From assembly GCF_006345805.1 (NCBI RefSeq), contig NC_043014.1:33728001-33792000 (forward strand): a stretch of 64,000 bases of DNA. Direction: 5' to 3'. A program made the position numbers. The DNA comes from Octopus sinensis (lineage: Eukaryota). Below, one piece after another: positions 2,129-3,023 of the stretch. Every line of letters begins with the position of its first letter. The stretch's first letter is position 1.

Positions 2129-2159
<31 letters not shown>

Positions 2160-3023
2160 ACGTAAGGGGTATCAGCCATCTGAATGTGGCTAGGGACAGG
2201 GCGGGGTGGTGGGGTGTTACTGATGCTTTTAGCCCCAGGCGATCATCAACGTCACCAGAAGGACTGACACCATATTGGTGTCCTTGTTTGCCTGTAAAGG
2301 GAGGTTATCCTCCCTCGAAGATACTGATGCTACATACGGACCGGTTTCGAGGTCATTGCCTCTTATCAACGCATGGTAAGCACCGTTCCTCGATGAAGGA
2401 TTCCCTCTACAGGCAACATATATAAGGTTTTTCACAGTAACTACTGTCACTGATGTAGAAAAACTGTCTGAAAACAATAATAAATCTCTGAACGAGATAT
2501 AAACAGTAACTGCTCGACAACGTAAGGGGGATCAGCCATCTGAATGTGGCTAGGGACAGGGCGGGGTGGTGGGGTAGTACTGATGCTTTTAGCCCCAGGC
2601 GATCATCAACGTCACCAGAAGGACTGACACCATATCGGTGTCCTTGTTTGCCTGTAAAGGGAGGTTATCCTCCCTCGAAGATACGGATGCTACATACGGA
2701 CCGGTTTCGAGGTCATTGCCTCTTATCAACGCATGGTAAGCACCGTTCCTCGATGAAGGATTCCCTCTACAGGCAACATATATAAGGTTTTTCACAGTAA
2801 CTACTGTCACTGATCACATTCAGATGGCTGATCCCCCTTACGTTGTCGAGCAGTTACTGTTTATATCTCGTTCAGAGATTTATTATTGTTTTTATATATA
2901 TATATATATATATAATATATATAATATATATATATATACATGTGTTTGTGTGCATACGTGTGTGTGTACATATATACACATACATACATATACAAGATGC
3001 ATCCAGCCATCATCCAGCTAGCC

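What the first reader, a model, noticed from the sequence alone, without database searches (positions are those of the whole stretch)
2159..2892. Tandem 360-bp hammerhead-ribozyme repeat: candidate retrozyme/Penelope-type self-cleaving RNA system predicting a 360-nt (circular) RNA
Seen: two near-identical 360-bp units, each with a complete minimal type I hammerhead on the minus strand (2333-2375, 2693-2735), followed by an inverted partial copy (2815-2892), all between (TA)n tracts. The unit is strongly self-complementary: ttgcctgtaaaggga (2288-2302) pairs with tccctctacaggcaa (2402-2416) and encloses the ribozyme, and there are further hairpins at about 2259-2285 and 2427-2464. No RT is encoded. 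Established: tandem minimal type I hammerheads with palindromic stem III characterise Penelope-like element pseudo-LTRs and non-autonomous metazoan retrozymes, and they can cleave as dimers. Inference: a minus-strand transcript would self-cleave at 2699/2698 and 2339/2338, releasing an exactly 360-nt monomer that can be circularised and remobilised in trans. Near-identity of the units suggests a young family.
Basis: partly seen in the sequence, partly recalled or inferred. Interest (0 to 1): 0.9.

Follow-up and report, generated by a model that had tools for sequence, protein, structure and literature searches.

The report
Tandem hammerhead retrozyme in TA microsatellite
A 734-bp insert in a TA microsatellite of an invertebrate (probably mollusc) genome carries two copies of a self-cleaving hammerhead RNA motif spaced 360 bases apart, which fits a known class of small non-coding mobile elements (retrozymes) thought to spread as circular RNAs, so it is a good but fairly ordinary example.

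Summary
One full 360-bp unit (2159-2518) is followed by 296 bp of a second (2519-2814, 291 of 296 identical). An exact inverted 78-bp piece follows (2815-2892), and (TA)n lies on both sides.

Each unit has a type I hammerhead on the minus strand (2375-2333, 2735-2693). My descriptor found only these two sites in 64 kb and none in 200 shuffles. The core has U3/A8 instead of C3/G8. No Rfam hammerhead model matched, even at E<=10.

The 360-nt monomer is non-coding, 47% GC and strongly self-paired (z -4.8). Stem III is a palindrome, so two copies can form a double hammerhead.

The layout is a partial tandem with a head-to-head inverted truncated copy, a 48-bp offset between the two outer ends and a (TA)n target. 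That matches the insertion footprint of Penelope-like elements (PMC8557442, PMC11167929).

Best reading: a metazoan non-LTR retrozyme, a new member of a known kind. Cleavage, circles, copy number and a partner Penelope element are all untested. No other copy and no Penelope reverse transcriptase or endonuclease was found in the window.

The parts
2108..2158 (.). Left (TA)n tract, one half of the presumed microsatellite target
   Evidence: TRF row 2108-2159, period 2, 27 copies. The repeat unit starts at 2159.
2159..2518 (-). Full 360-bp unit (unit 1). The functional strand is minus.
   Evidence: the repeat finder D1, spacing 360. blastn of the unit against the window finds only this locus.
2519..2814 (-). 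Partial second unit (296 bp), truncated at its 5' end in the sense (minus) orientation
   Evidence: 291 of 296 positions identical to unit 1.
2333..2375 (-). Hammerhead copy B. Helix I is 2375-2370 with 2338-2333. Core is U3 2369 to A9 2363. Helix II is 2362-2359 with 2352-2349, and loop 2 is 2358-2353. G12-A14 is 2348-2346. The helix III palindrome is 2345-2340. C17 is 2339. The predicted cut is 2339|2338.
   Evidence: Descriptor hit. Local fold gives helices I and II plus an internal loop and a 6-bp closing stem. Sequence read.
2693..2735 (-). Hammerhead copy A, identical in sequence to copy B. The predicted cut is 2699|2698.
   Evidence: Descriptor hit.
2339..2698 (-). Predicted 360-nt monomer RNA released by the two cuts, and the candidate circle
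   Evidence: Linear MFE -120.2 kcal/mol, z -4.76, with 0 of 100 shuffles as stable. Circular MFE -114.9, z -4.8, 64% of bases paired. All frames are closed.
2815..2892 (+). Inverted, 5'-truncated partial copy. It reads as sense on the plus strand and lies head-to-head with the main array.
   Evidence: Exact reverse complement of 2471-2548, 78 of 78 positions.
2845..2892 (+). 48-bp 'tail-like' offset. The inverted copy reaches the equivalent of 2471, whereas the main array ends at 2159, the equivalent of 2519.
   Evidence: Coordinates. In the sense RNA this stretch folds as a separate stem-loop of -9.8 kcal/mol.
2893..2938 (.). Right (TA)n tract, the other half of the presumed target
   Evidence: TRF row 2893-2938, period 2, 24 copies.

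Best explanation
The 734-bp block 2159-2892 is one insertion of a small non-coding, non-autonomous retroelement of the metazoan non-LTR retrozyme kind.

Shown by the sequence:
- The array has 1.8 tandem units of 360 bp.
- Each unit carries a type I hammerhead motif on the minus strand with the U3-A8 core covariation.
- The unit is highly self-paired.
- An inverted truncated copy lies at the sense 5' end.
- (TA)n lies at both outer ends.

Inferred life cycle:
1. A minus-strand transcript spanning both hammerheads is made.
2. Helix III is only the palindrome ACCGGU, so a single motif is expected to be nearly inactive. Two motifs can pair through this palindrome into a double hammerhead.
3. [quoted passage not shown]
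4. A host RtcB-type ligase closes this RNA into a circle. The circle has only one ribozyme and so resists re-cleavage.

Inferred insertion:
1. A Penelope-like reverse transcriptase/GIY-YIG endonuclease acting in trans cut both strands of a (TA)n tract.
2. It primed cDNA on both strands at two internal RNA sites 48 nt apart.
3. One cDNA ran 656 nt, 1.8 turns of a circular or multimeric template. The other ran 78 nt.
4. The two met head-to-head at 2814|2815.
For: Motif:
- The descriptor hit exactly 2 sites in 64 kb and 0 in 200 dinucleotide shuffles, strict or relaxed.
- All invariant core positions are present except 3 and 8, which are U and A. G10.1-C11.1 is kept.
- Features I did not require are also present. 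These are a 3-nt/1-nt internal loop in helix I followed by a 6-bp closing stem, a 6-nt loop 2, and a palindromic helix III.
- The C3-G8 pair covaries to U3-A8 in natural hammerheads, and such cores are reported as active in vitro (PMC3088659). About 1,300 such motifs were reported in Schistosoma Penelope-type hammerheads (PMC4209133).

Dimer:
- Two 75-nt domains cofold at -48.7 kcal/mol against 2 x -20.4, with ACCGGU pairing to ACCGGU.
- Enforcing that pairing in the 656-nt transcript costs only 3.3 kcal/mol (-231.1 against -234.4).
- Amphibian retrozyme hammerheads with a one-pair helix III and a palindromic tetraloop cleave poorly as monomers and well as dimers (PMC7229834).

Unit:
- It is 360 bp and 46.9% GC.
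- All 6 frames are closed, and the open frames have no Pfam match.
- The sense-strand fold gives z -4.76 linear and -4.8 circular. The antisense gives -2.79 and -2.7.

Insertion footprint:
- Both ends abut perfect (TA)n. There are only 71 such tracts, covering 3% of the window.
- Penelope-like insertions are described as partial tandems with an inverted 5'-truncated copy at the 5' end and a 30-40-bp tail. They show a bias for (TA)n or AT-rich targets (PMC8557442).
- The purified Penelope-like enzyme cuts and extends both strands and starts reverse transcription at two adjacent internal sites (PMC11167929).
- Neither outer end coincides with the ribozyme cut site, and both cDNAs cross unit junctions. 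The template was therefore circular or multimeric.
Against: - No Rfam hammerhead family matched. This held at gathering score on the whole window (0 matches), at E<=10 on 2100-2950 (4 matches, none a hammerhead), and at E<=10 on 2310-2400 (2 matches, none a hammerhead).
- C3 and G8 of the consensus are absent, and the activity of this particular U3/A8 motif is unknown.
- The 75-nt ribozyme domain is not unusually stable. Its z is -1.23, and 25 of 200 shuffles fold at least as well.
- The double hammerhead is not the MFE of the full dimeric transcript.
- Only one locus exists in the window. The two motif copies are identical, so there is no covariation evidence.
- I could not search any eukaryotic genome.
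- No Penelope-type RT or GIY-YIG domain was found in 84 of the 246 open frames of at least 75 aa that I scanned. The only RVT_1 match belongs to a LINE-type element.
- Translated-ORF searches found no relatives.
- The tail offset is 48 bp, longer than the published 30-40 bp.
- No empty-site paralogue shows the insertion directly.
- The footprint argument rests on a single locus.
Confidence: 0.7

Rival explanations
1. It is a remnant of an autonomous Penelope-like element: a severely 5'-truncated insertion of which only pseudo-LTR sequence with its hammerhead survives. It would not be an independent 360-nt retrozyme.
For: The partial tandem, the inverted truncated copy, the tail-like offset and the (TA)n target are all Penelope hallmarks (PMC8557442; PMC11167929). 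Retrozymes and Penelope pLTRs are reported to be related in sequence in Xenopus (preprint 10.64898/2026.07.22.740005).
Against: The repeat period is 360 bp and the unit closes on itself, with a hammerhead in every unit. In a Penelope partial tandem the period would be the several-kb element. No RT or EN coding fragment lies in or next to the block. The motif has the canonical architecture, with a 6-bp helix I plus loop 1 and a 4-bp helix II. It lacks the long helix II and short helix I described for Penelope minimal hammerheads (PMC4209133). A Penelope-type minimal descriptor found 0 sites in the window.
Confidence: 0.12
2. It is a dead or never-active look-alike. A local tandem duplication or minisatellite happens to contain a hammerhead-like string with two core substitutions, and no self-cleaving RNA or circle is made.
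For: There is no Rfam hammerhead match at any threshold tried. C3 and G8 are both replaced. The locus is single in the window. The local domain stability is unremarkable. Perreault et al. warn that consensus-like hammerheads occur by chance in large databases (PMC3088659).
Against: The descriptor found 0 hits in 200 shuffles. The two substitutions are exactly the pair that keeps the 3-8 base pair. Unrequired features of natural type I motifs are present. The motif sits at the base of a roughly 55-bp helix that closes helix I. The sense strand folds better than the antisense. The retroelement-type insertion footprint is independent of the motif.
Confidence: 0.1
3. The tandem and/or the inverted piece is an assembly artefact, or a DNA-level fold-back rearrangement at a fragile (TA)n site. 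In that case the architecture says nothing about reverse transcription.
For: Complex tandem/inverted Penelope-type structures are said to cause assembly problems, especially with short reads (PMC8557442). The inverted piece is 78 of 78 identical to its partner. The window holds an assembly gap at 19180-19279 and very many microsatellites.
Against: The two units differ at 5 of 296 positions, so they are not a simple collapse or duplication of the same reads. The inverted piece copies a stretch that ends 266 bp from the junction, not the adjacent sequence as a simple fold-back would. Both outer ends fall exactly at (TA)n.
Confidence: 0.08

Closest known systems
Metazoan non-LTR retrozymes (Cervera and de la Pena 2020, PMC7229834), for example the mussel Mytilus galloprovincialis repeats of about 350-390 bp
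   Same: Short tandem repeat within the 150-450 bp range, one type I hammerhead per unit, under 50% GC, non-coding, and a highly self-paired monomer. The host is probably also a mollusc. The predicted product falls within the reported 170-400 nt range.
   Different: The core has U3-A8 instead of C3-G8. There are only 1.8 units at this locus. Expression, circles and copy number were not examined. An inverted truncated copy is attached, and I did not see this described for retrozymes in the text I read.
Amphibian satellite/retrozyme hammerheads (newt satellite; axolotl HHR_Amex1 in Rtz_331; PMC7229834)
   Same: Helix III is reduced to one closing pair around a palindromic tetraloop. Efficient cleavage is therefore expected only when two tandem motifs form a double hammerhead. 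The unit length is about 330-350 bp.
   Different: The host group and unit sequence differ. [quoted passage not shown] They have a consensus C3-G8 core.
Minimal hammerheads in pseudo-LTRs of Penelope-like elements (PMC4209133)
   Same: Type I topology, palindromic 15.2-16.2/helix III, presumed action as a dimer, and U3-A8 covariants documented in Schistosoma. The insertion architecture is also the same: partial tandem, inverted copy, tail and AT-rich or (TA)n target.
   Different: Penelope minimal motifs have a long helix II (7-8 bp), a short helix I (4-5 bp) and a poorly defined loop 1. They flank an RT/EN ORF with a period of about 3 kb. Here helix I is 6 bp plus a loop and closing stem, helix II is 4 bp, the period is 360 bp, and there is no ORF.
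Plant LTR retrozymes (PMC4918200; seen in the search listing, and described in passages of PMC7229834 and PMC7761336)
   Same: Non-autonomous and hammerhead-flanked. They are proposed to propagate through a circular RNA that is reverse-transcribed in trans.
   Different: The plant elements use type III hammerheads inside roughly 350-bp LTRs. They have a PBS, a PPT and 4-bp target duplications, make circles of 600-1000 nt, and are thought to be mobilised by Gypsy elements.

Membership tests
Hammerhead ribozyme, type I | Three helices around a junction, with helix I open (type I topology) | tested here: met
   Descriptor hits at 2375-2333 and 2735-2693. The MFE of the 75-nt domain forms helices I and II. 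Helix III is only the palindrome ACCGGU, read.
Hammerhead ribozyme, type I | Conserved core U4 G5 A6 N7 A9, G12 A13 A14, A15.1-U16.1 and H17, with G10.1-C11.1 | tested here: met
   All are present at 2368-2363, 2348-2345 and 2340-2339, with G2362-C2349.
Hammerhead ribozyme, type I | C3 and G8 of the consensus core | tested here: not met
   U at 2369 and A at 2364. The pair is kept as U-A. This is a covariation reported in nature and reported as active in vitro (PMC3088659; PMC4209133). I therefore file the motif as a core variant, not a consensus member.
Hammerhead ribozyme, type I | Match to a curated covariance model (the Rfam hammerhead families) | tested here: not met
   0 matches at gathering score in 64 kb. 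No hammerhead appeared among the 4 matches at E<=10 on 851 nt, nor among the 2 matches at E<=10 on 91 nt.
Hammerhead ribozyme, type I | Site-specific self-cleavage | not testable with these tools
   This needs in vitro transcription of one-unit and two-unit constructs.
Hammerhead ribozyme, type I | Conservation or compensatory change of helices across copies | tested here: inconclusive
   Only two copies are available and the 43-nt motif is identical in both. No other copy is in the window.
Metazoan non-LTR retrozyme | Short tandem repeat (150-450 bp) with a type I hammerhead in at least two consecutive units | tested here: met
   360-bp spacing with a motif in both units. The criteria come from PMC7229834 and the preprint 10.64898/2026.07.22.740005.
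Metazoan non-LTR retrozyme | Hammerhead MFE below -5 kcal/mol (the preprint's 'active' criterion) | tested here: met
   The 43-mer MFE is -9.3 kcal/mol. That MFE contains a small alternative helix besides helices I and II.
Metazoan non-LTR retrozyme | Non-coding and low GC (under 50%) | tested here: met
   There are at least 3 stops in each of the 6 circular frames. The open frames over the locus have no Pfam match. GC is 46.9%. PBS and PPT motifs were not searched for.
Metazoan non-LTR retrozyme | Monomer predicted to be stable and highly self-paired | tested here: met
   MFE -120.2 kcal/mol, z -4.76, with 0 of 100 shuffles as stable. The circular fold is -114.9 with 64% of bases paired.
Metazoan non-LTR retrozyme | Multi-copy, dispersed family in the genome | tested here: inconclusive
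   There is one locus in 64 kb. No eukaryotic genome collection was available. An exact 38-mer is absent from the bacterial and archaeal genome contigs. Translated-ORF searches found nothing credible.
Metazoan non-LTR retrozyme | Expressed as linear and circular monomer RNA | not testable with these tools
   This needs host RNA: northern blot, RNase R treatment, divergent RT-PCR, or junction reads in RNA-seq.
Penelope-like element (autonomous) | ORF with a telomerase-like RT and a GIY-YIG endonuclease | tested here: not met
   No GIY-YIG match was found. The single RVT_1 match is at 40411-40848, among 84 scanned of 246 open frames of at least 75 aa. Its relatives carry Exo_endo_phos, which marks a LINE type. 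The locus is not an autonomous Penelope element.
Penelope-like element (insertion footprint only) | Partial tandem, inverted 5'-truncated copy at the 5' end, a 30-40-bp tail at one end, and an AT-rich or microsatellite target | tested here: met
   The tandem, the inverted copy and the (TA)n flanks are met. The offset between the two outer ends is 48 bp, somewhat longer than published. The features come from PMC8557442 and PMC11167929.

The most novel reading that the evidence does not exclude
The locus is a preserved record of how retrozyme circles are put back into DNA. A Penelope-type enzyme cut both strands of a (TA)n tract and primed reverse transcription on both strands. Priming began at two internal sites 48 nt apart, which bracket a discrete stem-loop of the RNA (2519 to 2465 in the sense strand). 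The enzyme copied a circular hammerhead RNA for 1.8 turns. If this footprint recurs at other copies, it would be direct structural evidence that Penelope elements mobilise retrozyme circRNAs. It would also locate the RNA module the enzyme recognises, in an element whose canonical hammerhead works with a U3-A8 core.
Probability: 0.3. Interest if true: 0.6.

Novelty: new member of a known kind. Interest (0 to 1): 0.4.

Why it matters
Retrozymes are a source of abundant small circular RNAs in animals, yet how they are copied back into the genome is still a hypothesis. The suspected partner, the Penelope-like elements, has only recently been studied in vitro.

This single locus adds little to the catalogue, since mussels and many other invertebrates are already known to carry such repeats. 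It does combine three points in one 734-bp block that can be checked genome-wide with simple searches:
- a canonical-architecture hammerhead with the rare U3-A8 core pair;
- a helix III that should make cleavage depend on dimers;
- a complete Penelope-style insertion footprint on a non-coding 360-bp unit.

If the footprint recurs, it turns 'Penelope elements mobilise retrozymes' from a correlation into a mechanistic statement.

Tried and rejected
Rfam: three searches found no hammerhead family. The weak matches listed were a pestivirus UTR, SprD, sR55, queA, HYMAI and 5.8S. All scored far below their gathering scores, and I treat them as chance.

Other copies in the window: blastn of the unit found none. 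The remaining hits scored 27 bits or less.

Other copies elsewhere:
- An exact 38-mer scan of the bacterial and archaeal genome contigs gave 0 matches. That collection cannot hold the host, so this says little.
- I translated two open frames of the unit in the hope that gene callers had predicted them on other copies.
- The plus-strand frame 2510-2782 had no candidate.
- The minus-strand frame 2232-2531 gave 2 hits at E<=0.001 among 1.84 billion representatives.
- Both hits are internally repetitive proteins, one of 65-aa units and one of about 118-aa units.
- Single-unit BLASTP against the first (P0022) gave 26-33% identity and E values of 5e-4 to 0.05 for a two-sequence comparison. I reject both hits as summed weak matches. 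The second (P0023) I rejected by eye only.

Empty-site test: the left flank 1940-2107 belongs to a SINE-like repeat with at least 7 other copies in the window. None of those copies continues into the right flank, so no paralogous empty site was obtained.

Penelope RT/EN in the window: none found. I dropped 162 of the 246 open frames of at least 75 aa before that scan as low-complexity, meaning residue entropy below 3.85. A degraded fragment could have been missed.

Penelope-type minimal hammerhead descriptor: 0 hits in the window and 0 in 100 mononucleotide shuffles.

Host identity: relatives of the LINE RT fragment were mostly unnamed. The best named one is from the limpet Patella caerulea at 46% identity. 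I recall the SINE as resembling an octopus repeat, but that is recollection only. ARAGORN found no tRNA-like gene.

Loop contacts: from memory, the internal loop of helix I and the 6-nt loop 2 resemble the Schistosoma hammerhead used for the crystal structure. I did not test this.

Literature:
- One search was badly framed and uninformative (8,008 papers).
- (hammerhead ribozyme plus octopus) returned 5 papers, 4 listed, and none by its title concerns a cephalopod hammerhead.
-, with the passages, showed no description of an inverted copy or tail on animal retrozymes in the text I read.
The supplementary figures of PMC7229834 and PMC4209133 may show mollusc or other invertebrate retrozymes and U3-A8 motifs that bear on novelty.

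What I saw of each paper:
- PMC7229834: outline, Results parts 1-2 of 3, and Discussion.
- 10.64898/2026.07.22.740005: abstract, Methods, Results part 1 of 2, Discussion, and passages.
- PMC4209133: passages.
- PMC8557442: passages.
- PMC3088659: passages.
- PMC11167929: abstract and the whole main text.
- PMC7151607: one passage.
- PMC6155905: passages.
- PMC7761336: passages.
- PMC4918200: search listing only.

Recalled, not seen: that an RtcB-type ligase is what the host would use beyond the in vitro assays reported in PMC7229834, and that the 2'-OH of residue 8 acts in catalysis.
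Full report
**What is there**

- The repeat finder gives a direct repeat, 2159-2454 and 2519-2814, of 296 nt at 98% identity with 360-bp spacing.
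- A script found 5 differences in 296 positions.
- The array is therefore one full unit (2159-2518) plus 0.82 of a second.
- TRF did not list a 360-bp period among its 20 rows for 1-8000. It did list the (TA)n tracts at 2108-2159 and 2893-2938.
- The inverted arm is reported as 2804-2892 against 2471-2559, 89 nt at 96%. The exact part is 2815-2892, which equals the reverse complement of 2471-2548 at 78 of 78 positions.
- The unit occurs nowhere else in the 64-kb window.

**The ribozyme motif**

On the minus strand, 2375-2333 and 2735-2693 are identical 43-mers. Their parts, in unit 1 coordinates, are:
- a 6-bp helix I;
- a core running from 2369 to 2363;
- a 4-bp helix II closed by G-C, with a 6-nt loop;
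- GAA at 2348-2346;
- the palindrome ACCGGU at 2345-2340, which supplies A15.1 and U16.1;
- C17 at 2339.

The 75-nt domain folds with helices I and II. Helix I continues through a 3-nt/1-nt internal loop into a further 6-bp stem.

I wrote a descriptor that accepts either C3/G8 or U3/A8. It requires helices I and II, GAAA, a short helix III and UH.
- It hit only these two sites in both strands of the window.
- It hit nothing in 200 dinucleotide-preserving shuffles, even with helices relaxed to 3 pairs.

Two things count against a simple call.
- Positions 3 and 8 are U and A, not C and G.
- No Rfam hammerhead model matched. This held at gathering score on the window (0 matches), at E<=10 on 2100-2950 (4 unrelated matches), and at E<=10 on 2310-2400 (2 unrelated matches).

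The local domain is also not unusually stable. Its z is -1.23, and 25 of 200 shuffles fold as well.

The literature softens the first point.
[quoted passage not shown] They also state that such cores had been shown active in vitro (PMC3088659, passage).
- Cervera and de la Pena found about 1,300 U3-A8 motifs in Schistosoma mansoni (PMC4209133, passage).
- Frangieh et al. show that single changes at 3 or 8 kill a Penelope hammerhead, and that the compensating double change partly restores it (PMC11167929).

I therefore treat the motif as a core-covariant hammerhead whose activity is unproven.

**Which kind of hammerhead**

PMC4209133 separates two types.
- 'Canonical' metazoan type I motifs have a 6-bp helix I, a 4-bp helix II, interacting loops, and a helix III of 1-2 bp capped by a small palindromic loop.
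- The 'minimal' motifs of Penelope pseudo-LTRs have a helix II of 7-8 bp, a helix I of 4-5 bp, and a poorly defined loop 1.

Its helix III can only be one A-U pair around the tetraloop CCGG. This is the architecture described for the axolotl and newt motifs, which cleave poorly alone (6% in an hour) and well as dimers (PMC7229834).

The folding results agree.
- Two 75-nt domains cofold at -48.7 kcal/mol against 2 x -20.4, with the two palindromes paired.
- In the full 656-nt two-unit transcript the double hammerhead is not the MFE. Enforcing it costs only 3.3 kcal/mol.

**The unit**

The predicted monomer 2698 to 2339 is 360 nt and 46.9% GC, against 37.3% for the window.
- It folds at -120.2 kcal/mol, z -4.76, with 0 of 100 shuffles as stable.
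- As a circle it folds at -114.9 kcal/mol, z -4.8, with 64% of bases paired.
- The antisense strand is weaker, at -112.4 (z -2.79) and -106.8 (z -2.7).
- All six circular reading frames have at least 3 stops. The open frames across the locus have no Pfam match.

These are the published features of metazoan non-LTR retrozymes (PMC7229834). The locus also meets the operational criterion of Li et al.: a tandem repeat with at least two consecutive complete hammerheads and MFE below -5 kcal/mol. Here the MFE is -9.3.

**The insertion footprint**

Take the minus strand as sense.
- The main array runs from 2814 (5', truncated) to 2159 (3').
- The 78-bp piece is a second sense copy on the other strand, running from 2815 (5', truncated) to 2892 (3').
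- The two copies are head-to-head, and each 3' end abuts (TA)n.
- Perfect (TA) tracts of 8 or more repeats number 71 and cover 3% of the window. Both ends landing on such tracts by chance is very unlikely.
- The two 3' ends correspond to unit positions 48 nt apart, the equivalents of 2519 and 2471.
- The intervening sense RNA folds as a separate stem-loop of -9.8 kcal/mol.
- Neither end is at the ribozyme cut site, and both copies cross unit boundaries. The template was therefore an uncleaved multimer or a religated circle.

This is the structure described for Penelope-like insertions: a partial tandem, an inverted 5'-truncated copy next to the 5' end, a 30-40-bp tail at one end, and a bias for (TA)n (PMC8557442).

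It also agrees with the only in vitro study I found. There the enzyme cuts and extends both strands at AT-rich DNA and starts reverse transcription at two adjacent internal sites. The sequence between those sites is the tail (PMC11167929).

Cervera and de la Pena named Penelope elements as the likely mobilisers of animal retrozymes. Li et al. argue the same from co-occurrence and pLTR similarity. In the text I read I did not see this footprint reported for a retrozyme. The supplements could not be consulted.

The argument rests on one locus. The 48-bp offset is longer than the published tail, and a DNA-level rearrangement or a mis-assembly cannot be excluded.

**Surroundings and limits**

- The window is AT-rich and full of microsatellites.
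- It holds a SINE-like family. The left flank 1940-2107 matches at least 7 other copies.
- It holds a LINE RT fragment at 40411-40848. That fragment matches RVT_1, and its relatives carry Exo_endo_phos.
- It holds a weak Tc1-like remnant.
- There is no GIY-YIG domain and no second RT among the 84 of 246 open frames scanned.
- The best named relative of the RT fragment is from a limpet, so the host is probably a mollusc. My impression that the SINE is octopus-like is recollection only.
- No tool here reaches eukaryotic genomes. Copy number, conservation of the core, a partner Penelope element and expression all remain open.
- Attempts through translated open frames gave nothing credible.

**Verdict**

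The core is U3-A8, the architecture is canonical rather than minimal, Rfam gives no support, and 'young family' is unsupported.
- The locus is best filed as a new member of the known class of metazoan non-LTR retrozymes, with confidence 0.7.
- Its most interesting aspect is the complete Penelope-type footprint on a 360-bp non-coding unit.

Noticed in passing
1940-2107; also 3400-3850 (-), 10120-10580 (+), 19300-19745 (-), 21865-22300 (+), 36640-37090 (+), 55230-55660 (-), 56370-56800 (+): This is a SINE-like repeat family of about 400 bp with an internal CA/TA microsatellite. At least 7 copies are about 70% identical to the left flank of the finding, which holds only one half of the element. 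ARAGORN calls no tRNA-like gene in the window.
   Followed up: partly
40411-40848 (+): This is a reverse-transcriptase fragment (Pfam RVT_1, E 6.3e-09). Its relatives carry Exo_endo_phos and zf-RVT domains, so it is a LINE-type element and not a Penelope-like one. The best named relative is from the limpet Patella caerulea (46% identity).
   Followed up: partly
31192-31751 (+) and 46448-47087 (+): These look like decayed DNA-transposase remnants. The first has a weak HTH_Tnp_Tc3_2 match (E 1.4e-4, below the curated cut-off). The second looks mariner-like by eye but has no Pfam match.
   Followed up: partly
whole window, for example 670-1060, 5310-5498, 6279-6672, 7067-7270: Microsatellite density is extreme. 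There are 71 perfect (TA) tracts of 8 or more repeats, besides long AC, TATG, TACA and trinucleotide arrays. Many long open frames are only translated repeats.
   Followed up: partly
19180-19279: This is an assembly gap of 100 N, next to a SINE-like copy at 19300-19745.
   Followed up: no
53255-53770 (-): This is an open frame of 172 aa with a weak Ndc80_HEC match (E 0.0078, 16.4 bits against a cut-off of 25.1). It could be a chance match or a stray exon.
   Followed up: no
protein P0022 (library representative, not in the window): This is an unnamed 509-aa protein made of nearly 8 tandem 65-aa units, probably a translated satellite. It shows weak similarity to the translated ribozyme region (26-33% identity per unit), which I judged spurious.
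   Followed up: partly
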